Source of the DNA: an uncultured SAR86 cluster bacterium
GTDB lineage: Bacteria > Pseudomonadota > Gammaproteobacteria > Magnimaribacterales > D2472
NCBI GenBank assembly: GCA_902563835.1
Contig: CACEZB010000001.1
Coordinates: forward strand, 42,217 to 106,216
DNA: 64,000 nucleotides
Direction: 5' to 3'
Position numbers and translations under genes: made by a program. Each line of letters begins with the position of its first letter. Positions within the stretch are counted from its first letter, which is position 1. The notes below the pieces were generated by a model. The model was not told the origin of the DNA. It worked only from the letters and a program-made list of their open reading frames with translations, and did no database searches. Shown piece after piece: positions 25,312 to 33,552 of the stretch.

Positions 25312-25590
25312 TTAAAAACCCTTTTCTTCCTTGAGCAATCTTCTTTTAGCCTTTTCACCCCCAGGCCCGCTATACCCACCAATATTTCCATCAGACCTAA
25401 TAGCCCTATGGCAAGGGATCTCAATCGGTCTCGGGTTTTTGCCACAAGCATTTGCAACTGCCCTAGATGAATTAGGGTGTCCAATTGCTATTGCTATTTC
25501 TTTATATGATTTGGTGTGTCCTCTTGGAATCTTTTTAAGTTGCGCCCAAACCTTTTTTTGAAAGATTGTTCCAGATATTCTTTTATTCAA
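25312..25590 (-). CDS. stand-alone methylated-DNA-protein-cysteine methyltransferase (MGMT/Ogt) C-terminal domain protein
   Basis: 92 aa with the active-site motif IPCHRAI and a helix-turn-helix region (SYKEIAIAIGHP). Confidence 0.75.
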   Translation of the reverse strand: MNKRISGTIFQKKVWAQLKKIPRGHTKSYKEIAIAIGHPNSSRAVANACGKNPRPIEIPCHRAIRSDGNIGGYSGPGGEKAKRRLLKEEKGF

Positions 25591-25596
25591 TTTAAT

Positions 25597-25917
25597 TTAC
25601 GATTTATATAAATTCACAATCGTAGTGCCTATTACAATTAAAAATAATCCTGCAACCGTTTGCCAATTTAAAGTTTGTTTGTAAAAAATATAGCTCAAAA
25701 TAGCTATAGAAAATATTCCTATTCCAGACCACGAGGCATAAACAATTGAGAGAGGAAGTTTTTGAGAAACGATTGCTAGAAAATAGAAAGACATTCCATA
25801 TGAAGTTAGCAATACTACTGTTGGGGTTATCTTTGTAAAGTTTTGTGATGCTGGTAATAGCATGGTGCCAACAACCTCTAATGCAATTGCTATAAAAAGC
25901 AATGCATAGACATTCAT
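25597..25917 (-). CDS. SMR-family small multidrug/quaternary-cation efflux protein
   Basis: About 106 aa from the ATG at 25917, with 4 TM segments. The conserved membrane Glu sits in TM1 (AIALEVVGT). ATGA overlap with the upstream GFA gene. Confidence 0.75.
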   Translation of the reverse strand: MNVYALLFIAIALEVVGTMLLPASQNFTKITPTVVLLTSYGMSFYFLAIVSQKLPLSIVYASWSGIGIFSIAILSYIFYKQTLNWQTVAGLFLIVIGTTIVNLYKS

Positions 25918-26282
25918 TTTTCTACCCAAGGAAGTTTATCTTCAATATAAATATCTGTCTTTGGCTCAAAGTCTTGAGGCTTATCTAAGCTACCAATAGT
26001 TATATAAATATAATCTGGGTATTCTTTAAGCATACAAACTAAAGGTGTCCCACATTCCTGACAAAAATATCGCGTCCCTTCAGAGGAGGAAATTAATTTT
26101 TTTGGTTCCCCTTCAATATATGTAAATCGTTCTAGTGGTATAGCCATCCAAGAAACATATGCGGCCCCAGAAATACGTCTGCACATAGAACAATGACAAT
26201 TTGAAGTATAGTAATTATCTGGTCCAAAACCGTAACGAATTGAGCCGCAAAAACACCCGCCTTGTATCACTTTTCCTACCAT
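25914..26282 (-). CDS. GFA-family zinc protein (second paralogue)
   Basis: Cys motifs CFCG...CHCSMCRR...CQECG. Confidence 0.7.
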   Translation of the reverse strand: MVGKVIQGGCFCGSIRYGFGPDNYYTSNCHCSMCRRISGAAYVSWMAIPLERFTYIEGEPKKLISSSEGTRYFCQECGTPLVCMLKEYPDYIYITIGSLDKPQDFEPKTDIYIEDKLPWVEK

Positions 26283-26310
26283 GATTGAATATCCATAACC
26301 AGATTAATTC

Positions 26311-26391
26311 TCATCGATTAAGAAACCACCAATACATAACCATCATAAAGATGATGACAAACCATAACATAAAGTTGCTATTCTTTTTCAT
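26311..26391 (-). CDS. possible 26-aa hydrophobic peptide (MKKNSNFMLWFVIIFMMVMYWWFLNR)
   Basis: Hand translation; below the ORF-track size cutoff. Overlaps the end of the preceding small ORF by 14 nt. Confidence 0.25.
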   Translation of the reverse strand: MKKNSNFMLWFVIIFMMVMYWWFLNR

Positions 26392-26527
26392 TTCTTAAAA
26401 ACATTAATGAAGCTGTTGCTAGTATAACAAGCATCAAAATAGTAAATTGTTTTTCTTCAACTATTGCAACAACAAGAATTGCCGCTGCCCACATAATTGA
26501 TTGAAAGATCTTTTGTTTTTTATTCAT
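26378..26527 (-). CDS. possible 49-aa two-TM peptide (MNKKQKIFQSIMWAAAILVVAIVEEKQFTILMLVILATASLMFLRNEKE)
   Basis: Hand translation. The ATG lies 5 nt after the stop of the 135-aa gene. A decayed copy of its first codons follows the paralogous 117-aa gene. Confidence 0.3.
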   Translation of the reverse strand: MNKKQKIFQSIMWAAAILVVAIVEEKQFTILMLVILATASLMFLRNEKE

Positions 26528-26532
26528 GACTT

Positions 26533-26940
26533 TCATTTACCCAGACCAGGAGATCCACCCTGAAAAATCTTTACTTTGTCTATTACTTTTCCGGACCTAT
26601 CGAAAGTCTTACCCTTTTTATTTTTGTTAAGAGTTTTTATTCGATTTATTTGATCTTTGGTAAAACCTCTCCTTCCTCTTGATTCAAATTTTTTTATGTC
26701 TGATTCTTTCTTTAAAACACTCATATAATCACAATAATGTCGTATTTCTTTTAATTTCCAACCTTTGGGTTGAAGAATTTTTTTAATGTCCTCATAAAAA
26801 ATAAAAGGGAATATTATTTTTTTAAATTCTTGAAACTTTTTAATTGAAATTATTCTTTCTAAATTTTGTTTTTTTTCTTCTAATTTTCTTTTTACTTCTT
26901 TTTTTTGAATCGGGGAAAGGTTTTTATATTTTTTCTTCAT
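26533..26940 (-). CDS. basic hypothetical protein, paralogue A, with C-terminal QGGSPGLGK motif
   Basis: 135 aa, Lys/Arg-rich. Homologous along its length to the 27006-27359 ORF (..ERIISIK../..ESIISTK.., DIKKIL..GW..EI). Confidence 0.55.
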   Translation of the reverse strand: MKKKYKNLSPIQKKEVKRKLEEKKQNLERIISIKKFQEFKKIIFPFIFYEDIKKILQPKGWKLKEIRHYCDYMSVLKKESDIKKFESRGRRGFTKDQINRIKTLNKNKKGKTFDRSGKVIDKVKIFQGGSPGLGK

Positions 26941-26952
26941 TGATTAACTATT

Positions 26953-26994
26953 ATAACCAAATCTACTCCACCGTAGTGGAGTTGAATTGGTTGT
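26953..26994 (-). repeat. J1 intercistronic element: imperfect 42-bp palindrome with a 7-bp stem and UACG-loop hairpin core
   Basis: ATAACCAA-atct-ACTCCAC-cgta-GTGGAGT-tgaa-TTGGTTGT. Positions 26955-26975 are identical to 27390-27410. Positions 26963-26980 read STTVE* on the minus strand. Confidence 0.7.
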
Positions 26995-27005
26995 ACCTGT
27001 TTTCT

Positions 27006-27359
27006 TCATGACTTTCCTTTACCCAAACCTGGTGATCCACCTTGATACGGTTTTGTATAAGTTTTTGGTTGTCCGGTCTTGTTTTTGGAATATTTAAATG
27101 AAGGGGATACCCTTCGAGTATCCTGTCCCTTTCCTATACTTTTTGGTTTAGATAATTTCGATATTTGTTCCCTCGACCAACCCAACTCCATTAGTGAATC
27201 ATGAAGTATTTTTTTTATATTATCTCGACGATTGATTTTCTTATCCTGTAATTTAGTTGAAATTATTGATTCCAACTGAGTTATTAACTCCTCTAAATTC
27301 TTATTTTTGATATGACCATCTTTATTAAGATAATCTTTAAGATAACCCTTGATATCCAT
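27006..27359 (-). CDS. basic hypothetical protein, paralogue B, with C-terminal QGGSPGLGK(GKS) motif
   Basis: 117 aa. The C-terminal motif codons differ from paralogue A only at synonymous sites. Confidence 0.55.
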   Translation of the reverse strand: MDIKGYLKDYLNKDGHIKNKNLEELITQLESIISTKLQDKKINRRDNIKKILHDSLMELGWSREQISKLSKPKSIGKGQDTRRVSPSFKYSKNKTGQPKTYTKPYQGGSPGLGKGKS

Positions 27360-27387
27360 ACTTATTTTTTACACCTAAATAACTGGT

Positions 27388-27432
27388 ACAACCAAATCTA
27401 CTCCACCGTAACGGAGTGTCCATAACCAAATT
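27388..27432 (-). repeat. J2 intercistronic element: hairpin copy plus flanking AACCAAAT direct repeats
   Basis: The 21-bp stretch aaccaaatctactccaccgta is shared with J1. Hairpin at 27400-27417. Positions 27398-27415 read SVTVE* on the minus strand. Positions 27419-27432 repeat 26292-26305 (13/14). Confidence 0.7.
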
Positions 27433-27446
27433 GTCAACTTTCCCCA

Positions 27447-28304
27447 TTATTTCTTAATTTGTTTATTTACTAGTTTTATTTTGTCTACATTTAGACCCTT
27501 AACATTTACTAAATTACTAAAGATGCTAGCAAAAAGTCTAATCGAGTAGTTTTCAATCTCATCTAAGAGGAAACTATACTCCGGATGAAGTTCAAAGAAC
27601 AAAAAACTATCAAACTCTTCCATTGCGACTCTTGAAGAGTTTTCTTTTACCCTGTCTCCAAATTTATTTGCTTTTCCAATATAGAGTTGGTTTTCTTTCT
27701 TGTTATTTAAGATGTAAACCACATTTGTTCTCGATGAATACTTTTTTAGTTCAGATTTTTTTAACCATCTGTCTGAATAGGAAATAAAAATTTTATCTTT
27801 TTGTTTTTTCTTTTTACTGTCTTCCCAAAAAGCAAATAAATTTTTATCCTCAAGAAAATAAAACATCTCATCAAAGTCAGTCTCTTGCTTAGAAAGTACT
27901 TTTACTCTAAAAATATTTTCTTTTAAGTGAACAAATTCGAGAAGTTCTTTTATTTTTGGTTGTGCTTTATTTCTTGTGGAGGCATAACTGTAGATCATTA
28001 ATTTTCTTAATGCCTTTAAGGTATCGAGTTCGTTTTTCCAATATATTTGGAGCACATCCCTAACAGGGTATTTAACATTAGATCTTTTTTTTGATTTGCT
28101 TGAATTATCAATACTGACTAATCGTATTTTTGCATCAAAGGTTTTGTTTTTAATTTTTAGTTTTATCGATTTTATTCTTTCTTTTTTTGTGAGTTTAAAG
28201 TGCTTTATATACTCTGGATAAACTGCTTTTTGAAGAGTAAACCCGTAATAAAAAAATGTATATCTAGGTATTACATAACTGGAACTTAAAGCAGGTTTGA
28301 CCAT
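27447..28304 (-). CDS. GIY-YIG-domain nuclease with unassigned Lys-rich N-terminal region of about 190 aa
   Basis: The C-terminal segment VVYILNNKKENQLYIGKANKFGDRV...LLDEIENYSIRLF matches the GIY-x(9-11)-YIG-x(7)-R...E..N layout (compare UvrC GVY..LYVGKAKNLRKRV). This is about nt 27519-27725. Confidence 0.6.
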   Translation of the reverse strand: MVKPALSSSYVIPRYTFFYYGFTLQKAVYPEYIKHFKLTKKERIKSIKLKIKNKTFDAKIRLVSIDNSSKSKKRSNVKYPVRDVLQIYWKNELDTLKALRKLMIYSYASTRNKAQPKIKELLEFVHLKENIFRVKVLSKQETDFDEMFYFLEDKNLFAFWEDSKKKKQKDKIFISYSDRWLKKSELKKYSSRTNVVYILNNKKENQLYIGKANKFGDRVKENSSRVAMEEFDSFLFFELHPEYSFLLDEIENYSIRLFASIFSNLVNVKGLNVDKIKLVNKQIKK

Positions 28305-28323
28305 TTTTTATTCGACGGTTGCA

Positions 28324-28347
28324 GAATAAGTGCGAGTAGTGATTTCG
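28324..28347. repeat. left copy of a perfect 24-bp inverted repeat
   Basis: gaataagtgcgagtagtgatttcg is the exact reverse complement of 28941-28964. Imperfect extension to 28314 (acggt...). Confidence 0.9.
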
Positions 28348-28367
28348 TTTATCGTGTTCATTTCCAT

Positions 28368-28796
28368 TTAAAATTTGTTTCCTTTGATTGTTTCTTTTAT
28401 TAGATTCTGGGTTATGTTTATCCACTCCACTTCTTTAATTAGTTTACATTTACCTTTTAAAGATCCGTTCCCCAATCGTTCAAGATAAAGCGTCTCTCTG
28501 TTTAATGAATAATAAGAGTCATATAACTTATCTATGTGCTTTAGATGTATACCGCCTTCGCCTACAACCTTATATACTTTGCCTGAAATTTTATGAAACT
28601 TATATACGCCCACTTCAAAGGTATTGTTTTTTATTGGTTTTGTATTTACTACAAAATATTCTTGATAATCTGCTTCTAACTTATTTTCATTGCCTTCCTT
28701 TCTCCATTCATCATCTATGTCACATTCAATCCAAGTCGTTTCACCATGAGCATGGAAATTGATTATAAAAATTAAGCAAATTAAAAATTTTTTCAT
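28368..28796 (-). CDS. small secreted hypothetical protein
   Basis: 142 aa with an N-terminal signal peptide (MKKFLICLIFIINFHA). The whole gene lies between the 24-bp inverted repeats. Confidence 0.55.
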   Translation of the reverse strand: MKKFLICLIFIINFHAHGETTWIECDIDDEWRKEGNENKLEADYQEYFVVNTKPIKNNTFEVGVYKFHKISGKVYKVVGEGGIHLKHIDKLYDSYYSLNRETLYLERLGNGSLKGKCKLIKEVEWINITQNLIKETIKGNKF

Positions 28797-28940
28797 ATCT
28801 TATTCTTACATACTAATAAGTTAGTTTCATCCTTGAGATTTTTGTCTTGTAAGTTTTCTGTTCTTTTTGAGGATAAGCAACTAAATAATCACTTCTGCAA
28901 TTAAGAATAAAAGTTAAATATGTATCGTTGATGCGTGATG

Positions 28941-28964
28941 CGAAATCACTACTCGCACTTATTC
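28941..28964. repeat. right copy of a perfect 24-bp inverted repeat
   Basis: cgaaatcactactcgcacttattc. Overlaps the J3 remnant. Confidence 0.9.
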
Positions 28965-28978
28965 CACCGTAGCAGAGT
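28959..28978 (-). repeat. J3 element: third UACG-loop hairpin / GlmS-end-like remnant
   Basis: The minus strand reads tct gct acg gtg gaa taa (SATVE*). The hairpin is ACUCUGC-UACG-GUGGAAU with 6 of 7 pairs (2 wobble). Confidence 0.55.
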
Positions 28979-29098
28979 GTTCTTACCCCACCCATAATTC
29001 TTCACTATTTCTGCGGTATTTAAAAAGGTTAATGATTGGTTGCTTAAATTACTCATAATTATAGTGCTGTATATCCAAATTATGATATTGATTTAAAA

Positions 29099-29464
29099 TC
29101 AAGATAGTAACCAAAACGCCAAAAGACTAATATAGAAAATCTGTATTATCACAAGAAGACTGTCAATAAGACTATCAATCGAACCTGTAAATTTATTATT
29201 TATGCCAACAAGGTCTAAAACTTCTTGAAGCAATCTAAGAAAAAATAAAAAAAACAATGGTATTACTAATCCATTTGGTCCCGCATACGTAATAGTGTTG
29301 TATAGCAAAGGGGTATTATTTATCAGATCAGAGGATACTAGCGAGACATAAATCCAAGGGGCAGAAAACATGGCAAATAAAAGAATAAACCCGTAAGTAA
29401 TAATCGCACCTATGGCACTGGTAAGAAATCTAGAAAGAAATTTTCTAATCTGCTTAATATCCAT
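29099..29464 (-). CDS. hypothetical membrane protein
   Basis: 121 aa with about 3 TM segments. Confidence 0.5.
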   Translation of the reverse strand: MDIKQIRKFLSRFLTSAIGAIITYGFILLFAMFSAPWIYVSLVSSDLINNTPLLYNTITYAGPNGLVIPLFFLFFLRLLQEVLDLVGINNKFTGSIDSLIDSLLVIIQIFYISLLAFWLLS

Positions 29465-29544
29465 TTCTTAATAAGAGGTTCACGATTTTAGTTTGATTGT
29501 GTTATTGGTTAAGTAAAAAAGTAATTTGGTTTTGATATAAACCA

Positions 29545-30000
29545 TCAATAAATTAAAACACAATAATTTAACTCTGTTTCCGCTTCATCGTATTGTTCTT
29601 TGGTTATAGGCAACAAATTTTCAAAAGGAATTGGGTGTGGTTTTATTCTGGGTGGGTCTTGATAGTTTAATATTGCGTATTTTCCTGTGAATTGTATTCC
29701 GTTTTTTGTTTCAGCAATAAATTCTAGAGTTGGTGCAACACCAGGACCTTGTGCTTCCCATGGCAAACAATACTCATCTTCTCCTATCATTCGACAATAC
29801 AATGGCGGCATAACATCAACATCAACATGGTTATTTAAAAAGGTCATGCTAATCGCTGGTTGTATTGTCATCATGTAGTAAGTACGATTCATCTCAGCAA
29901 TCGAATAAGTTACAGAACATCTAATATCTTTTTCTCCTCCATCTTCGTGAGCAAATAGATTAATAGATAAGAGCAATGTAAATAGAACAACGTTTTTCAT
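29545..30000 (-). CDS. small secreted hypothetical protein
   Basis: 151 aa. The signal peptide ends ...NLFA and is followed by HEDGGEKD. Contains 4 Cys. Confidence 0.55.
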   Translation of the reverse strand: MKNVVLFTLLLSINLFAHEDGGEKDIRCSVTYSIAEMNRTYYMMTIQPAISMTFLNNHVDVDVMPPLYCRMIGEDEYCLPWEAQGPGVAPTLEFIAETKNGIQFTGKYAILNYQDPPRIKPHPIPFENLLPITKEQYDEAETELNYCVLIY

Positions 30001-30150
30001 AAAAATATTTTGCCATAACTCTTTATAAATGTCCTATAAGTACACATAAAGGTCCGCAACAAGTCTCAACATCCCCTTGTGACTTCCTCTAACACGAAAA
30101 AATAGGTGAAATTTTTAGGGTAGTTTTTACCAGGGTTAAATTTTAGTGGT

Positions 30151-30176
30151 TTTTAAAACCCCCGCAGAATGCGAGG
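30151..30176 (-). terminator. candidate rho-independent terminator, probably the displaced ancestral glmS terminator
   Basis: Minus-sense CCUCGCA-UUC-UGCGGGG (7 pairs, one G.U that pairs only in this sense), then GUUUUAAAA. It starts 23 nt after the stop codon of the glmS-end remnant. Confidence 0.5.
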
Positions 30177-30199
30177 TTAAAACTAATTGTTGTTTAAAT

Positions 30200-30221
30200 T
30201 TACTCCACTGTGACTGACTTG
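30200..30221 (-). repeat. displaced copy of the glmS 3' end (last 6 codons plus stop), acting as an att-like direct repeat
   Basis: ttactccactgtgactgacttg versus 31726-31747 ctactccacagtgactgacttg is 20/22 identical. Both differences are silent (Thr third position; TAA versus TAG). Confidence 0.85.
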
Positions 30222-30225
30222 AATG

Positions 30226-30240
30226 AAACAGAGAATTAGA
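30226..30240. repeat. inner inverted repeat, left copy (AAACAGAGAATTAGA)
   Basis: 14/15 match to the reverse complement of 31707-31721. Both copies sit exactly 4 nt inside the 22-bp direct repeats. Confidence 0.75.
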
Positions 30241-30280
30241 TTTATCCCTTATGTCTACTGACTTCTTCATTGCTTTTTTT

Positions 30281-30386
30281 TTGACCAAACCCTACCTGCT
30301 TTTGCAGTAACCTCGTTGACCAAACCGGTTTTATAGATATTTCTTCCATTTTATACATTATAACCGTTGTTATTGTTTGACCAATC
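30281..30386 (+). repeat. three direct copies of TTGACCAA(A/T)C (30281, 30316, 30377)
   Basis: ttgaccaaacc occurs twice and ttgaccaatc once, in the non-coding arm next to the left att-like repeat. These are candidate arm-type or regulator binding sites. Confidence 0.45.
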
Positions 30387-30414
30387 GTCCTATATAAGTT
30401 TGTTATAATTTTTA

Positions 30415-31656
30415 ATGGTTATGAAAAAAATAATAGTTCTCAATATTCTTGTCCTTCTTGCTGGTTGTGGTCCATCGCAGGAAGAGAGGGTGAATATTGC
30501 TCTAAATGCTTGCGCCGTTATGGGTGAATCGAAACAATCAGATTCATTGTTTCGCATGCAAACCATGGTTGATGCGCGAGAAAAGTTAGGTGGTGAAGGG
30601 TTTTCGGGAGGGGATGACGCAATCTTAGAGGCATTTGAATTTGGAATTTGTTCAGAGTTAGTATTGAACGAATCCTATGATGAACTTCTTCTATCTTTAA
30701 AAGATGCTAAGCGCGAAAGAGAGAGAATAGCGGCAGAGAAATTGGCAGAAGAAAAGAGAATAGAGGCAGAAAAACTGGCAGAAGAAAAGAGAATAGAGGC
30801 AGAAAAACTGGCAGAAGAGAAGAGAATAGAGGCAGAGAGGCAAAGAATTGCCGATAGTAAACCTACAGTAAAAGAAGAGTTCTATGGCAACGGTAGATTA
30901 AAAAGCAGGACAAATTACCAACCCGTACTGAATGGAGGAAAAAAACATGGTCTTTTTGAGTTGTTCTACAAGAGCGGTCAATTACAGTTAAAGCAAAACT
31001 ACAGAGACGGAAAAGAAGACGGTGTTTATGAGGAGTACTACGAAAATGGTCGAGTAAGTGTACGGACTGTTTTTAAGAATGGAAAACGTGAAGGTCCTTA
31101 TGAGGAGTATCATGAAAATACTCAATTGTGGGTACAAACTGTTTTTAAGAATGGGAAAATTGAAGGTGATTATTTTCAATACGACAAGTACGGTATTGTA
31201 AAAGCACAGATTAGTTTTAAGAACGGAAAACGTGATGGTCCTTATATAGGTTACTGGGATAAAGGGGGGGTAAGAGAAATGGGTAATTACAAGGAAGGAA
31301 AACGTGATGGTCATTTTTGGTTTTATGGAGCAAAAGGCACTCGTTCATCTATGGTAGATTGGGAAGAAGATACTTTCTATAAGATTAACATTGAAGAAAA
31401 ACTAAAAGGTTATTTTAAAAACGGTTTCTTCTATCCATTAGAAAAAGAAGGTATTTACAAGAATGGATTGCGTCATGGTATTCATAAAACCTATGCGGAT
31501 TACTACACGGAGGGTGAAACTCTGTTGACTTGGAAAGGAGAATACAAAAACGGAAAGTTAGATGGTCTAACTTTTGGTTATGACGGCAAAAGAGAATATG
31601 TAAAGAATTGTTACAAAAACGGTGATGAAATAATTATGTCCTACTGCAAAAAGTAA
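30415..31656 (+). CDS. lipoprotein with MORN-variant (YwqK-like) repeats and a coiled-coil linker
   Basis: Lipobox LLAGC. More than 8 repeats of the Y.NGk..G....Y type. AEKLAEEKRIE occurs 3 times. The start may instead be the ATG at 30421. Confidence 0.7.
   Translation: MVMKKIIVLNILVLLAGCGPSQEERVNIALNACAVMGESKQSDSLFRMQTMVDAREKLGGEGFSGGDDAILEAFEFGICSELVLNESYDELLLSLKDAKRERERIAAEKLAEEKRIEAEKLAEEKRIEAEKLAEEKRIEAERQRIADSKPTVKEEFYGNGRLKSRTNYQPVLNGGKKHGLFELFYKSGQLQLKQNYRDGKEDGVYEEYYENGRVSVRTVFKNGKREGPYEEYHENTQLWVQTVFKNGKIEGDYFQYDKYGIVKAQISFKNGKRDGPYIGYWDKGGVREMGNYKEGKRDGHFWFYGAKGTRSSMVDWEEDTFYKINIEEKLKGYFKNGFFYPLEKEGIYKNGLRHGIHKTYADYYTEGETLLTWKGEYKNGKLDGLTFGYDGKREYVKNCYKNGDEIIMSYCKK
30733..30831 (+). 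repeat. 33-bp x 3 in-frame tandem repeat encoding AEKLAEEKRIE
   Basis: gcagaRaaaYtggcagaagaRaagagaatagag is repeated head to tail, with partial copies on both sides. Confidence 0.9.
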
Positions 31657-31683
31657 TCAATTGCTTTTTTGTAAAAAAGGGAG

Positions 31684-31725
31684 AAAAAAATGACAGAATC
31701 GTGATTTCTTATTCTCTGTTTTGTT
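31684..31725. terminator. candidate bidirectional terminator between the convergent MORN gene and glmS
   Basis: ACAGAAT...ATTCTCTGT stem (7 pairs plus a 2-nt bulge). It is flanked by A7 on one side and TTTGTT on the other, so there is a U-tract in both senses. Confidence 0.45.
31707..31721. repeat. inner inverted repeat, right copy (TCTTATTCTCTGTTT)
   Basis: Reverse complement AAACAGAGAATAAGA. Partner of 30226-30240. Confidence 0.75.
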
Positions 31726-33552
31726 CTACTCCACAGTGACTGACTTGGCAAGATTTCTTGGTTGATCAATATCGGTGCCCCTTAAAAGGGCAACCTCATA
31801 AGAAAGAATTTGAAGTGGAATGGTGTAAATAATTGGAGTTAAAAGAAAATCACATTTAGGCATATTAATAACCTGTCCTGATTTTAAATCCATTGTGATA
31901 GAAGGATCAGCAAAAACATACAGGGTGCCGCCCCTAGCCTTAACTTCTTCGAGGTTTGAAACAAGCTTTTCAGCTATTTCGCTCTCTGGAGCTAATGCAA
32001 TAACTGGCATTTCTTCATCAATTAATGCCAAAGGTCCATGTTTTAACTCGCCGGCCGGATAAGCCTCAGCATGAATATAAGAGATTTCTTTAAGCTTAAG
32101 AGCGCCTTCTTTTGCAATGGGATAGAAGATACCTCTTCCTAAAAATAAAGCATTATCTTTGCTTGCTATTGCAGGCGCTATCTCAAGAATTTTATCTTTT
32201 AATTTTAAGGTCTCATTTACAGTATCAGATAACGATCTCATTGCTGTAATAACACGAGTCCTTAATTTAGGGTTTTTACCCCTACTCTTTGCGAGCGCAA
32301 GAGAAAGCAGCATTAATGCAGCTAGTTGAGTGGTAAATGCTTTGGTTGAAGCAACGCCTATCTCAGGGCCGGCATTAGTAAAAATAGAATAATCAGATTC
32401 TCTTGCTAAAGAGCTAGTCGGCACATTGCAAATTGTTAGCGTTGATAAATAATCTTTTTCTTTTGCATATCTTAATGCAGCAAGTGTGTCTGCTGTTTCT
32501 CCTGACTGAGATATTGTTACCAATAGAGAATCTTCGTCAACATGTGGATTTCTATATCTATATTCTGAAGCATAATCAATCTGGGTTGGCAGCTCTGCGA
32601 TAGCAGAAAACCAGTTTGCAGCAACCCTTCCTGCATGCAAGCTCGTGCCGCAAGCAACAATTTGGATTCTTTTTACTTTTTCAAATATTTCAGATGACCC
32701 TATACCAAAGATATTATCTAATACATCATCGCCACCAACTCTGCCATCGATTGTATTTAGAATTGCATCAGGCTGTTCATATATTTCTTTTTCCATGAAA
32801 TGTTTATATTCGCCTTTAGAGGTTGCCTGATTAGAAATGTCAATTTGAGAAATCTCTCTTTCGACTTTATTTTTTGACTGATCATAGATTGTAAATTCTT
32901 CAGATGAGAGCTCAGCCACATCTCCATCTTCTAAAAAAATAAATTCATTTGTTAGCTGAGCTATAGCAAGAGGATCTGATGCAGCTAAAAACTCATCTGT
33001 TCCTATTCCAATTAGTAGTGGCGATTTGTTCCTAGCAATAATTATATTTTTGTCATCTTCTTTATCTATTGCTGCAATTGCATAAGCGCCATCAAGTTTT
33101 TCTTTAGTTAAATACATCGAGTCCAGCATTGAATTGCCCTTGGCTAAAAAATACTCAAGCATATGGGCTATTAATTCTGAGTCTGTTTGAGAAGAAAAGC
33201 TATAGCCCTCCTTTTTTAAAAATTCTTTTAAATCAAGATAGTTTTCAATAATTCCATTGTGAACAATGTAGACTCTTTCATTTGACTTATGAGGATGAGC
33301 GTTTTCCTCTGATGGTTCTCCATGAGTTGCCCATCTAGTATGAGCAATCCCCAGCTTACTTTTTGGCTTTTCGGAGATCATCTTTTCTTCTAGTAATTTA
33401 ACTTTTCCCAAAGTTCTTAAATGAGCTATTTGATTATTCTGATGTAGCGCGATCCCGGCAGAGTCATAACCTCGATACTCCATTTTATGAAGCCCTTGAA
33501 CAAGAAGCTTTCCTACATTTCTGTTAGAAGCAGCAGCTATGATTCCACACAT
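31726..33552 (-). CDS. glmS: glutamine--fructose-6-phosphate aminotransferase
   Basis: 608 aa. N-terminal MCGI (Cys2 nucleophile), two SIS domains, C-terminal ...LAKSVTVE. Confidence 0.97.
   Translation of the reverse strand: MCGIIAAASNRNVGKLLVQGLHKMEYRGYDSAGIALHQNNQIAHLRTLGKVKLLEEKMISEKPKSKLGIAHTRWATHGEPSEENAHPHKSNERVYIVHNGIIENYLDLKEFLKKEGYSFSSQTDSELIAHMLEYFLAKGNSMLDSMYLTKEKLDGAYAIAAIDKEDDKNIIIARNKSPLLIGIGTDEFLAASDPLAIAQLTNEFIFLEDGDVAELSSEEFTIYDQSKNKVEREISQIDISNQATSKGEYKHFMEKEIYEQPDAILNTIDGRVGGDDVLDNIFGIGSSEIFEKVKRIQIVACGTSLHAGRVAANWFSAIAELPTQIDYASEYRYRNPHVDEDSLLVTISQSGETADTLAALRYAKEKDYLSTLTICNVPTSSLARESDYSIFTNAGPEIGVASTKAFTTQLAALMLLSLALAKSRGKNPKLRTRVITAMRSLSDTVNETLKLKDKILEIAPAIASKDNALFLGRGIFYPIAKEGALKLKEISYIHAEAYPAGELKHGPLALIDEEMPVIALAPESEIAEKLVSNLEEVKARGGTLYVFADPSITMDLKSGQVINMPKCDFLLTPIIYTIPLQILSYEVALLRGTDIDQPRNLAKSVTVE

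What the first reader, a model, noticed from the sequence alone, without database searches (positions are those of the whole stretch)
30151..31747. Cleanly delimited 1.5-kb insertion with att-like architecture and a displaced glmS terminator, carrying only a MORN-repeat lipoprotein gene
The real glmS end (31726-31747) and its copy (30200-30221) form 22-bp direct repeats (20/22). Exactly 4 nt inside each repeat lies a 15-bp inverted repeat (30226-30240 AAACAGAGAATTAGA; reverse complement of 31707-31721 AAACAGAGAATAAGA; 14/15). This is the geometry expected for core-type recombinase binding sites in attL/attR. The adjacent non-coding arm has three direct TTGACCAA(A/T)C copies (30281, 30316, 30377) that resemble arm-type sites. 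A hairpin plus U-tract at 30151-30176 begins 23 nt beyond the remnant stop codon. It pairs fully only in the glmS sense, so it looks like the original glmS terminator. The element's own right end (31684-31725) can fold as a replacement bidirectional terminator. The element encodes no recombinase, so it resembles a cis-mobilisable element that targets glmS.
Basis: seen in the sequence. Interest (0 to 1): 0.7.

Follow-up and report, generated by a model that had tools for sequence, protein, structure and literature searches.

The report
Serine-recombinase gene-cassette array behind glmS
The 1.5-kb insert is one movable single-gene cassette in a row of at least five stacked behind the glmS gene of the abundant marine bacterium SAR86, and its ends and an internal gene fossil point to large serine recombinases supplied by related elements as the enzymes that move such cassettes.

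Summary
The repeats are real. The insert is not a lone event. The window carries six copies of a 20-nt core, A.TC.GT.AC.GT.GA.TA. (last glmS codons, wobble bases free), bounding at least five cassettes (about 25930-31745). In 81 SAR86 loci the core recurs 291 times in glmS orientation against 2 reversed. 54 of 59 loci have arrays. Each cassette's two ends are inverted repeats of each other, so a circularised cassette would carry a ~58-bp palindrome centred on the dinucleotide AC. That matches the layout of a large serine recombinase (LSR) attP. Unintegrated metagenomic elements carry exactly this site beside or inside an LSR gene. Integrated LSR elements sit at glmS or mid-array. The same MORN cassette occupies position 3 in a related genome, with homology ending inside the cores. 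Its non-coding "arm" is a fossil of the last ~53 LSR codons, and the three TTGACCAA "arm-type sites" are codons within it. The hairpin belongs to the next cassette's conserved leader. Closest analogue: staphylococcal SCC elements. I found no published description. Catalysis by the LSR and the route of array build-up are inferred.

The parts
31726..33552 (-). glmS (608 aa). Its last codons K-S-V-T-V-E-stop form the chromosomal attachment site.
   Evidence: ORF. 73-99% identical to SAR86 GlmS in 78 loci, flanked by glmU and the atp operon.
31726..31745 (-). Core 1 (AGTCAGTCACTGTGGAGTAG): junction between glmS and the MORN cassette, attL-like. The predicted crossover dinucleotide AC is at 31737-31736.
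   Evidence: 0 mismatches to the template A.TC.GT.AC.GT.GA.TA.. Crossover placement.
31707..31725 (-). P' arm (AACAAAACAGAGAATAAGA): the glmS-proximal half-site arm of the MORN cassette.
   Evidence: Inverted repeat of 30220-30240. It carries the AACAG motif 17-21 nt from the site centre, as in the attP sites next to LSR genes.
30415..31656 (+). Cargo gene: a 413-aa lipoprotein with MORN_2 repeats, antisense to glmS. It contains a 33-bp x 3.5 tandem repeat at 30722-30836.
   Evidence: Related proteins lie in cassettes of 7 other SAR86 loci.
30273..30434 (-). Fossil of the last ~53 codons of a large serine recombinase gene, with two in-frame stops: ...NGYNV*NGRNIYKTGLVNEVTAKAGRVWSKKKQ*.
   Evidence: tblastn against LSRs of unintegrated elements: L319 53% identity, E 6e-8; L283 46%, E 2e-7; L227 42%, E 5e-6. 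The same module ends other cassettes.
30200..30270 (-). Relic start of the small ORF that carries attP. Its ATG at 30270-30268 overlaps the fossil LSR stop, and it runs through the P arm and core 2.
   Evidence: Same ATGA overlap and same reading frame as in the unintegrated elements L227, L246 and L283. ORF 30136-30288 is listed.
30220..30240 (-). P arm (TCTAATTCTCTGTTTCATTCA): the distal half-site arm of the MORN cassette.
   Evidence: An identical arm ends cassettes in several metagenome loci.
30200..30219 (-). Core 2 (AGTCAGTCACAGTGGAGTAA): the 'glmS remnant', junction between the MORN cassette and cassette 2. AC lies at 30211-30210.
28979..30199 (-). Cassette 2 (class B). It has a conserved ~205-nt leader (29990-30199) that includes the hairpin plus U-tract at 30151-30176. 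Cargo: a secreted 151-aa protein and a 121-aa membrane protein.
   Evidence: The leader is 80-87% identical to more than 20 cassettes in 15 loci. Hairpin fold.
28959..28978 (-). Core 3 (1 mismatch).
28328..28958 (-). Cassette 3, with inverted-repeat arms of 18/18 nt (GTGCGAGTAGTGATTTCG). Cargo: a secreted 142-aa protein.
   Evidence: Its 5' part is shared with L013, L021 and L058 directly behind glmS.
28308..28327 (-). Core 4 (1 mismatch).
27418..28307 (-). Cassette 4. Cargo: a 285-aa protein with a weak GIY-YIG nuclease match.
27398..27417 (-). Core 5 (0 mismatches).
26983..27397 (-). Cassette 5, with arms ATTTGGTTGTACC / GGTACAACCAAT. Cargo: a 117-aa protein.
26963..26982 (-). Core 6 (2 mismatches).
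25930..26962 (-). Distal, decaying part of the array: a 135-aa ORF, a 52-aa ORF that is a separate cassette in L015, a 4-mismatch core relic near 26283-26302, and a GFA-family gene. The conserved flank begins at the SMR gene (25597-25929).

Best explanation
The 1.5-kb insert (unit 30211-31736) is a non-autonomous cassette. It is the glmS-proximal member of a tandem array of small, mostly single-gene cassettes anchored in the last codons of glmS in SAR86. A circularised cassette would carry a ~58-bp imperfect palindrome: P arm, the 20-bp core A.TC.GT.AC.GT.GA.TA., then P' arm. Recombination with the glmS end, or with a core already in the array, exchanges strands at or next to the central non-palindromic AC (the Thr codon). 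The incoming cassette therefore supplies the last codons and the stop of glmS, and it ends up flanked by two cores with its two arms split to its two ends. The enzymes are large serine recombinases (LSRs) encoded by plasmid- or phage-like elements that use the same site. The MORN cassette descends from such an element by loss of nearly all of its LSR gene, so it can now move only if an LSR is supplied in trans. Shown here by computation: the array, the site symmetry, the unit boundaries, the LSR fossil, and LSR elements with the identical site in free and integrated forms. Inferred: that the LSR catalyses cassette movement, the exact cleavage position, and how arrays grow.
For: (1) Array. The window has six cores in one orientation. 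In 81 loci there are 194/64/33 hits at 0/1/2 mismatches in glmS sense against 1/0/1 on the other strand. 54 of 59 SAR86 loci have at least one extra core, up to 8 in 6 kb. (2) Site architecture. Arms are complementary within a cassette (SW score >=20 in 47%) but not across a junction (7%) or in random pairs (5%). The dyad is centred between core positions 8 and 9. Positions 1-5 from the centre are asymmetric, 6, 7 and 9 are conserved, and 12-29 are complementary in 53-70% against ~30-50% in controls. (3) Crossover. Wobble positions 1 and 4 travel with the left flank, and 10, 13, 16 and 19 with the right flank. Homology between the window and L045 MORN cassettes ends inside both cores. (4) Recombinase. 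Free elements L246, L322, L319, L227, L283 and L273 have an LSR gene (567-581 aa; Resolvase + Recombinase domains, and Zn ribbon in relatives) directly followed by a small ORF that contains P-core-P'. L247, L150 and L187 have the site inside a fused LSR ORF, with arms that differ between L150 and L187 yet stay palindromic. The LSR matches A118 and TP901-1 integrases. (5) Integrated LSR elements are bounded by cores: L201 and L018 next to glmS, and L285 mid-array. (6) The MORN cassette keeps a fossil LSR 3' end, the overlapping ORF start and the P arm in the same order as the free elements. Class-B cassettes appear by eye to keep the last codons of a second LSR family, but tblastn of that family's C-termini against the window array was not significant. 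(7) Marine metagenome contigs show the cassette at about a tenth of glmS depth, and several other sequences start at the core.
Against: No LSR is encoded in the 64-kb window. Only 1 of 80 SAR86 loci has one within 6 kb of glmS, so most arrays lack a resident enzyme. Internal array junctions are P-core-P' hybrids. Canonical LSRs recombine only attP with attB, so array growth needs relaxed partner choice or another route, and this was not tested. Linkage of the wobble positions decays gradually towards the centre rather than in a step. That pattern would also fit a 6-8-bp tyrosine-recombinase overlap. The elements also encode a small serine recombinase whose role is unknown. No circular cassette junction was observed, because only assembled contigs, not raw reads, were available.
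Confidence: 0.75

Rival explanations
1. LSR elements merely share the site. The LSR-less cassettes are moved or shuffled by something else: a chromosomal recombinase encoded elsewhere in SAR86 genomes, or homologous recombination or gene conversion between arrays that uses glmS, the 20-bp cores and conserved leaders as homology after DNA uptake.
For: Arrays are nearly universal (54 of 59 loci) while LSR genes near glmS are rare (1 of 80). Linkage decays gradually across the core. Long conserved modules, such as the 205-nt class-B leader, could support homologous exchange. Chimeric cassettes exist: window cassette 2 has unmatched arms.
Against: Cassette ends are maintained as inverted repeats at a fixed register around the core. 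Homologous recombination would not select for that. Unit boundaries fall inside the 20-bp core. Cassettes carry fossils of LSR genes at the exact position seen in free elements. No other recombinase was seen in 131 in-array protein families or in 30 window ORFs.
Confidence: 0.15
2. One reading: a cis-mobilisable element left by a tyrosine-recombinase integrative element. The 15-bp inverted repeats would be core-type sites, the TTGACCAA repeats arm-type sites, and the hairpin a displaced original glmS terminator.
For: The direct and inverted repeats and the repeated motif are all present. An 8-bp asymmetric centre (GTNACNGT) flanked by symmetric positions is also compatible with a tyrosine-recombinase core.
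Against: No tyrosine recombinase was found in arrays, in the window ORFs scanned or in the related elements, which all carry serine recombinases. The TTGACCAA copies are fossil LSR codons, and two or more copies occur only in this cassette and its L045 orthologue among the SAR86 loci. The hairpin belongs to a leader repeated up to three times per array in other genomes.
Confidence: 0.05
3. An integron-like system (IntI-type integrase with attC hairpins), or a Tn7-like insertion at attTn7.
For: There are arrays of small cassettes, 83% co-oriented with glmS, with variable but self-complementary ends. glmS is the classical Tn7 target (established knowledge).
Against: The complementary arms lie at opposite ends of a cassette, not together at its 3' end. 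There is no intI, glmU lies upstream, and there are no R/L boxes. The junction lies inside the last glmS codons with a 20-bp repeat, not about 25 bp downstream with a 5-bp duplication. There are no tns genes.
Confidence: 0.03

Closest known systems
Staphylococcal cassette chromosome (SCC/SCCmec) elements and their composite islands, moved by the Ccr large serine recombinases
   Same: Both integrate into the 3' end of a conserved housekeeping gene and restore its last codons. Both have direct repeats equal to that gene end, and the copies differ mainly at wobble positions (compare the DR list in PMC7029136). Both have inverted repeats at the element ends and tandem composite arrays. Both include recombinase-less pseudo-elements that depend on a serine recombinase supplied in trans.
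   Different: The target is glmS, not rlmH/orfX, and the host is a streamlined marine gammaproteobacterium. Units are far smaller (median 0.6 kb, mostly one gene, up to 8 in 6 kb). The LSRs are only distantly related to characterised ones, at most 28% identity to TP901-1-type integrases. Relationship to Ccr was not tested. The attP lies inside or at the start of a small ORF coupled to the LSR gene.
Phage-type large serine integrases (A118/LI, TP901-1, Bxb1, phiC31) and their attP/attB sites
   Same: The domain set is Resolvase + Recombinase + Zn ribbon. The site is a ~50-60-bp imperfect palindrome around a central non-palindromic dinucleotide. The integrase gene lies next to attP.
   Different: Canonical integrases recombine only attP with attB and leave one attL and one attR. 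Here many P-core-P' hybrid junctions stand in tandem, and an LSR element sits mid-array (L285). That implies relaxed partner choice or another assembly route. In the fused forms the attP is inside the integrase ORF (L247, L150, L187).
Integrons (IntI tyrosine recombinase, attI, attC cassettes)
   Same: Both are arrays of small, mostly single-gene cassettes at one fixed chromosomal site. The cassettes are mostly co-oriented and their recombination sites vary in sequence but keep internal complementarity. Cargo is very diverse and often of unknown function.
   Different: There is no adjacent integrase and no attC. The complementary arms are split between the two cassette ends, because exchange occurs at the palindrome centre. 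The associated enzymes are serine, not tyrosine, recombinases.
SSV1-type archaeal integrases (attP inside the int gene) and Tn7 (glmS-directed insertion)
   Same: As with SSV1-type integrases (established knowledge), some of these LSR genes contain their own attP and would be split by integration. As with Tn7 TnsD, the system exploits the invariant end of glmS.
   Different: SSV1-type integrases are tyrosine recombinases of archaeal viruses. Tn7 is a transposon that inserts downstream of glmS without touching its codons.

Membership tests
Large serine recombinase (LSR) integrative element / att site | A recombinase with Resolvase catalytic domain, Recombinase domain and zinc-ribbon domain is encoded by the element, next to attP. 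| tested here: not met
   The window cassette has no intact LSR, only a 53-codon fossil. Related autonomous elements meet the feature (L246, L227, L319, L322, L247, L150, L187, L201, L018, L285). The window unit is therefore a non-autonomous derivative, not a full member.
Large serine recombinase (LSR) integrative element / att site | The att site is an imperfect palindrome of about 40-60 bp around a central non-palindromic crossover dinucleotide. | tested here: met
   Dyad centred on AC, with symmetry out to about 29 nt on each side. AACAG/CTGTT lies 17-21 nt from the centre in both arms of the window cassette.
Large serine recombinase (LSR) integrative element / att site | Strand exchange occurs at the central dinucleotide. 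| tested here: inconclusive
   Linkage of wobble positions switches sides between core positions 7 and 10, but gradually. Cassette homology ends inside the cores. Single-nucleotide mapping needs an experiment.
Large serine recombinase (LSR) integrative element / att site | The reaction is strictly attP x attB and yields one attL and one attR. | tested here: not met
   Arrays contain many P-core-P' hybrid junctions, and an LSR element lies mid-array.
LSR-type site-specific recombination | The LSR actually catalyses integration and excision of the cassettes. | not testable with these tools
   This needs a recombination assay or raw-read junction evidence. Only assembled contigs were available.
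SCC-like elements (staphylococcal cassette chromosome) | Insertion at the att sequence in the 3' end of rlmH/orfX of staphylococci, mediated by ccrAB or ccrC. | tested here: not met
   The target is glmS of SAR86. The recombinases are distant LSRs. The system works like SCC but is not an SCC.
SCC-like elements (staphylococcal cassette chromosome) | Flanking direct repeats equal to the target-gene end, terminal inverted repeats, composite tandem islands, and recombinase-less pseudo-elements. | tested here: met
   SCC criteria as quoted in PMC7029136.
Integron | An intI tyrosine integrase gene lies next to attI, and each cassette ends in an attC with paired R''/L''-L'/R' boxes. | tested here: not met
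   glmU lies upstream of glmS. No integrase was found in arrays or in the window ORFs scanned. The complementary arms are on opposite ends of each cassette.
Tn7-like transposon at attTn7 | tnsABC(D) genes, ends with TnsB sites, and insertion a fixed ~25 bp downstream of the glmS stop with a 5-bp duplication. | tested here: not met
   The junction is inside the last glmS codons with a 20-bp repeat. There are no tns genes among the array ORFs.
Cis-mobilisable element (CIME) of tyrosine-recombinase ICEs | Flanked by att sites of an integrative element and lacking its own recombination genes. | tested here: met
Cis-mobilisable element (CIME) of tyrosine-recombinase ICEs | Derived from, and mobilised by, an ICE with a tyrosine integrase and arm-type sites. 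| tested here: not met
   The parent elements carry serine recombinases. The putative arm-type sites are fossil codons.

The most novel reading that the evidence does not exclude
SAR86, one of the most abundant bacterial groups in the surface ocean, runs an integron-like gene-cassette platform that uses no integron parts. Families of large serine recombinases, carried on small replicons, would capture, stack and reshuffle minimal single-gene cassettes at the end of glmS. Their recognition core would read only the non-wobble bases of the last glmS codons, and the attP would be embedded in a coding sequence. This would be a third kind of cassette-array system, beside integrons and SCC, and a main engine of the flexible genome in a streamlined marine bacterium.
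Probability: 0.5. Interest if true: 0.9.

Novelty: new variant of a known kind. Interest (0 to 1): 0.8.

Why it matters
How genome-streamlined ocean bacteria, which largely lack classical plasmids, integrons and conjugative elements, acquire and exchange genes is an open question. Tycheposons were proposed as one answer for Prochlorococcus (bioRxiv 10.1101/2020.12.28.424599).

Here a fixed site behind glmS carries a rapidly turning-over array in nearly every SAR86 genome examined. Three strains with 99% identical GlmS have entirely different arrays. Cargo includes secreted proteins and lipoproteins, restriction-modification systems, nucleases and redox enzymes.

The system makes several things testable. 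One is whether a serine integrase can work in a multi-cassette, integron-like mode. Another is how its partner choice is relaxed. A third is how a recombinase recognises a protein-coding target while ignoring synonymous positions.

These LSRs and their short, well-defined 58-bp sites could also be useful as genome-engineering tools, and as markers for tracking SAR86 population structure.

Tried and rejected
1. Terminator reading of the cassette's right end. The fold z-scores are not significant and the terminator scan finds nothing there.

2. Structured RNA. Rfam gives no match at E <= 1 in 25500-32000. The class-B leader shows sequence conservation but almost no covariation, so it is not a structured RNA by this test.

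3. Bare core scan of viral contigs. Most of the 120 loci were chance single matches. Only L150 and L187 were meaningful, and they were picked out by arm palindromy.

4. Class-A attP pattern in viral contigs: 0 hits.

5. Recombinase inside arrays. A Pfam scan of 131 in-array protein representatives showed none among the 25 families displayed, out of 98 families hit.

6. The small HTH ORF as a detached LSR C-terminus. A search for fused full-length relatives returned only 64-163-aa stand-alone proteins. Fusions exist only in the L247, L150 and L187 types.

7. Other LSR or HTH fossils in window cassettes 2-6: nothing significant.

8. Empty-site and circular-junction evidence in public runs. Only assembled Logan contigs were available. 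The joints at 30220>31793/31796 and 30236/30243>31711 rest on 21-33 nt on the shorter side, so I do not rely on them.

9. Literature. Six searches and three papers read gave no description of this system. Absence from the searchable library is not proof of novelty.

10. Tn7, integron and chance-duplication readings were rejected on geometry and statistics.

Full report
**What is in the window.** The window is the origin-proximal region of a SAR86 chromosome. It carries dnaA-dnaN-recF-gyrB, rnpA-yidC-mnmE, gidAB, parAB, the atp operon, glmU and glmS. GlmS is 73-99% identical to 78 SAR86 genomes. glmS lies on the - strand at 31726-33552.

- The 22-bp copy of the glmS end at 30200-30221 matches 20/22. 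There is no other copy in 64 kb and none is expected by chance.
- The 15-bp inverted repeats sit 4 nt inside each copy.
- Three TTGACCAA(A/T)C copies occur, against 0.18 expected.
- A hairpin plus U-tract folds on the - strand at 30151-30176.
- One intact gene is present, a 413-aa lipoprotein with MORN_2 repeats.
- The proposed replacement terminator at the right end is not supported.

**The insert is one unit of an array.** Scanning 80 loci around SAR86 glmS genes showed that the glmS end (VTVE-stop) recurs downstream of glmS up to eight times. It is always in the same orientation and spaced 0.2-2 kb apart. A profile of 149 downstream copies gave a 20-nt core, A.TC.GT.AC.GT.GA.TA. These are the last glmS codons with every wobble base free. 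Three of the conserved positions (A, T, C upstream) were not imposed by my search pattern.

Allowing mismatches at the 13 fixed bases gave 194/64/33 hits at 0/1/2 mismatches in glmS sense. The other strand gave 1/0/1 in 1.06 Mb. 54 of 59 SAR86 loci with at least 5 kb downstream have at least one extra core.

The window itself has six cores: 31726, 30200, 28959, 28308, 27398 and 26963. A decayed relic lies near 26283. These bound at least five cassettes between glmS and the conserved SMR gene at 25597-25929.

**Anatomy of a cassette.** The first about 30 nt after a core and the last about 30 nt before the next core are reverse complements of each other in 47% of 213 cassettes. The figure is 7% for arms on either side of one junction and 5% for random pairs.

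Position by position, the symmetry is centred between core positions 8 and 9, the A and C of the Thr codon.
- The five positions on each side of the centre are asymmetric.
- Positions 6, 7 and 9 are conserved and symmetric (ANTC / GANT).
- Positions 12-29 are complementary within a cassette in 53-70% of cases, against about 30-50% in the junction control.

A circularised cassette would therefore carry a ~58-bp imperfect palindrome around a non-palindromic AC.

Pairs of sites that share only one flank show which part of the core travels with which side. Wobble positions 1 and 4 travel with the upstream cassette. Positions 10, 13, 16 and 19 travel with the downstream one. This places the exchange in the centre.

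The right half of the core is therefore donated to glmS by whichever cassette sits first, which explains why it must keep encoding V-E-stop. The left half never codes, yet it keeps the same non-wobble bases. The simplest explanation is recognition by a protein tuned to the invariant bases of glmS. That last point is inference.

**Mobility as a unit.** The MORN cassette is also present in SAR86 locus L045, whose GlmS is 99% identical to the window's. There it is the third cassette, behind two others. Identity is 94% over 1513 bp, and similarity begins and ends inside the two cores.

Arrays of three strains with 99% identical GlmS (the window, L015 and L045) share only isolated cassettes, and those sit in different positions. 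In marine metagenome contigs the cassette has about a tenth of the depth of glmS. Several unrelated sequences begin at the core. These are assembled contigs only, so this evidence is weak.

**The recombinase.**
- Nothing recombinase-like is encoded in the arrays. Among 131 representative proteins, cargo families include HNH, a MvaI/BcnI restriction enzyme with its methylase, Exo_endo_phos, MsrAB and SnoaL.
- No LSR gene was detected across the window by tblastn, and 30 of its larger ORFs scanned with Pfam show no recombinase domain.
- Two viral contigs picked out by arm palindromy (L150, L187) carry 733- and 718-aa LSRs. The ORF contains a perfect core, antisense, encoding YSTVT(D/E). The flanking arms differ between the two contigs but remain palindromic.
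- Among those hits, L246, L322, L319, L227, L283 and L273 show an LSR gene (567-581 aa where complete) whose stop overlaps the start of a small HTH ORF. That ORF contains the P-core-P' site. None has glmS nearby. L247 has the two ORFs fused.
- L285 is an array of eight cores with a 6-kb LSR element between the fifth and sixth.
- In SAR86 genomes L201 and L018, a 9-kb or larger element sits directly behind glmS, bounded by cores and palindromic arms. It carries a replication initiator (L201 also a DNA methylase) and a 551-aa LSR of a second family.
- The LSRs match the A118 integrase C-terminal domains and the TP901-1 catalytic domain. They are at most 28% identical to any deposited phage integrase.

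**The MORN cassette is a decayed LSR element.** The last 90-180 nt of the cassette (window about 30220-30400) are shared with other cassettes. Aligned, they read as the end of an LSR gene, an ATGA stop/start overlap, the start of the small ORF, the P arm and the core.

tblastn confirms this. Window 30273-30434 on the - strand translates to IIFFITIKNYNKLI*DDWSNNNNGYNV*NGRNIYKTGLVNEVTAKAGRVWSKKKQ*. This is 42-53% identical to the C-termini of the LSRs of L227, L283 and L319, with E values from 5e-6 to 6e-8.

Among the SAR86 loci, only this cassette and its L045 orthologue carry two or more copies of the motif. They are therefore not arm-type sites.

**The hairpin.** The hairpin at 30151-30176 lies in a ~205-nt leader that is 80-87% identical in more than 20 'class-B' cassettes with unrelated cargo. 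The leader runs from the P' arm to a Shine-Dalgarno sequence and the cargo ATG. In L026, L028, L030, L031, L019, L076 and L045 this leader directly follows the real glmS stop. In several arrays it occurs two or three times.

So it is cassette-borne. It may well terminate transcription coming from upstream, but it is not an ancestral glmS terminator. The 3' ends of class-B cassettes appear by eye to keep the last codons of the 551-aa LSR family. tblastn of that family's C-termini against the window array found nothing significant, so this derivation is weaker than the one for the MORN cassette.

**Mechanism, and what remains open.** The best-supported reading is LSR-mediated site-specific recombination at the central AC, with non-autonomous cassettes mobilised in trans.

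The main gap is array growth. Internal junctions are P-core-P' hybrids, whereas canonical serine integrases accept only attP x attB. Three routes are possible:
- these LSRs have relaxed partner choice, as I recall being reported for Ccr and for the TnpX/TndX type (my own knowledge, not checked here);
- multi-cassette circles integrate as a block;
- homologous exchange contributes.

The gradual decay of linkage across the core and the rarity of resident LSR genes keep a rival alive, in which another enzyme or homologous recombination moves the LSR-less cassettes.

**Comparison with known systems.** The closest analogue is the staphylococcal SCC system. It has serine recombinases, insertion in the 3' end of rlmH, direct repeats equal to the gene end whose copies differ mainly at wobble positions, terminal inverted repeats, composite islands and recombinase-less pseudo-elements (PMC7029136; the rest is established knowledge).

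The SAR86 system differs in target, host, recombinase clade, unit size and number, and in having attP inside a coding sequence. It resembles integrons in appearance but not in parts. It shares only the target gene with Tn7.

Searches of the paper library found no description of it.

Noticed in passing
window 29990-30199 (- strand); also L025 8491-8705, L028 7828-8042 and about 20 others: A ~205-nt leader is conserved at 80-87% among cassettes with unrelated cargo. It runs from the P' arm through the GC hairpin plus U-tract and invariant blocks (GGTAAAAAC.ACCCTAAAAATTTCACCTATTTTTTCGTGTTAG) to AAGGAG and the cargo ATG at a fixed distance. There is almost no covariation, so it looks like a DNA-level expression or insulation module rather than a structured RNA.
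   Followed up: partly
L246 112-699, L227 2245-2853, L150 5087-5767, L247 ORF 261-851 (- strand, coordinates in the site-oriented locus), L285 7784-8368: The LSR elements also encode a small serine recombinase (~195-227 aa). Where Pfam was run (L246, L227) it has Resolvase + HTH_7 domains; the L150 copy has Resolvase plus a partial Recombinase domain. It sits next to the LSR / attP module. Its role is unknown; it could be a multimer resolvase, a directionality factor or a second recombinase.
   Followed up: partly
L018 8272-8730; L201 3049-3579: The integrated LSR elements behind glmS carry a rolling-circle-type replication initiator (Pfam REP_ORF2-G2P). This suggests the free form is a small replicating plasmid or ssDNA-phage-like replicon.
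   Followed up: no
L010 7851-8144, L026 9764-10057, L018 7913-8167; proteins P0121-P0240: A small HTH protein (65-150 aa, weak Recombinase-domain match) starts at or just after the core in many cassettes and is very common in marine metagenomes (125 clusters). It corresponds to the extra C-terminal domain of the fused LSRs (L150, L187, L247). It is a candidate directionality or accessory factor.
   Followed up: partly
window 31266-31273 (G run inside the MORN gene) against L045: The two copies of the MORN gene differ by a length change at a homopolymer G/C run plus a 4-nt indel. This breaks the frame in L045 (289 aa against 413 aa). It could be decay or slippage-prone switching.
   Followed up: no
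window 30722-30836: A 33-bp tandem repeat, 3.5 copies at 95% identity, lies inside the lipoprotein gene and encodes (AEKLAEEKRIE)n between the signal peptide region and the MORN repeats.
   Followed up: no
window 26533-26940 and 27006-27359 (- strand): Two small proteins in neighbouring cassettes both end in QGGSPGLGK. Between the 135-aa ORF and the following 52-aa ORF the core has been lost, whereas L015 has a core there. Adjacent cassettes can therefore fuse as cores decay.
   Followed up: partly
L010 9612 and 9636; window joints 30236/30243 > 31711 in metagenome contigs: Some 'empty' cassettes exist: two cores only 4-30 nt apart with nothing but arm sequence between them. Metagenome contigs may show the same for the MORN-type arms, but those joints rest on 24-33 nt only.
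   Followed up: no
L045 8049-9587; window 27447-28304; many loci: Cassette cargo includes a complete restriction-modification pair (N6_N4 methylase plus MvaI/BcnI endonuclease), HNH and GIY-YIG nucleases and Exo_endo_phos proteins, beside many small secreted proteins. The array may double as a defence and cell-surface variation island.
   Followed up: no
L067 7810 and 8058 (SAR92 cluster SAG): A second glmS-end copy also occurs behind glmS in a SAR92 genome whose GlmS is 70% identical. The system may extend beyond SAR86.
   Followed up: no
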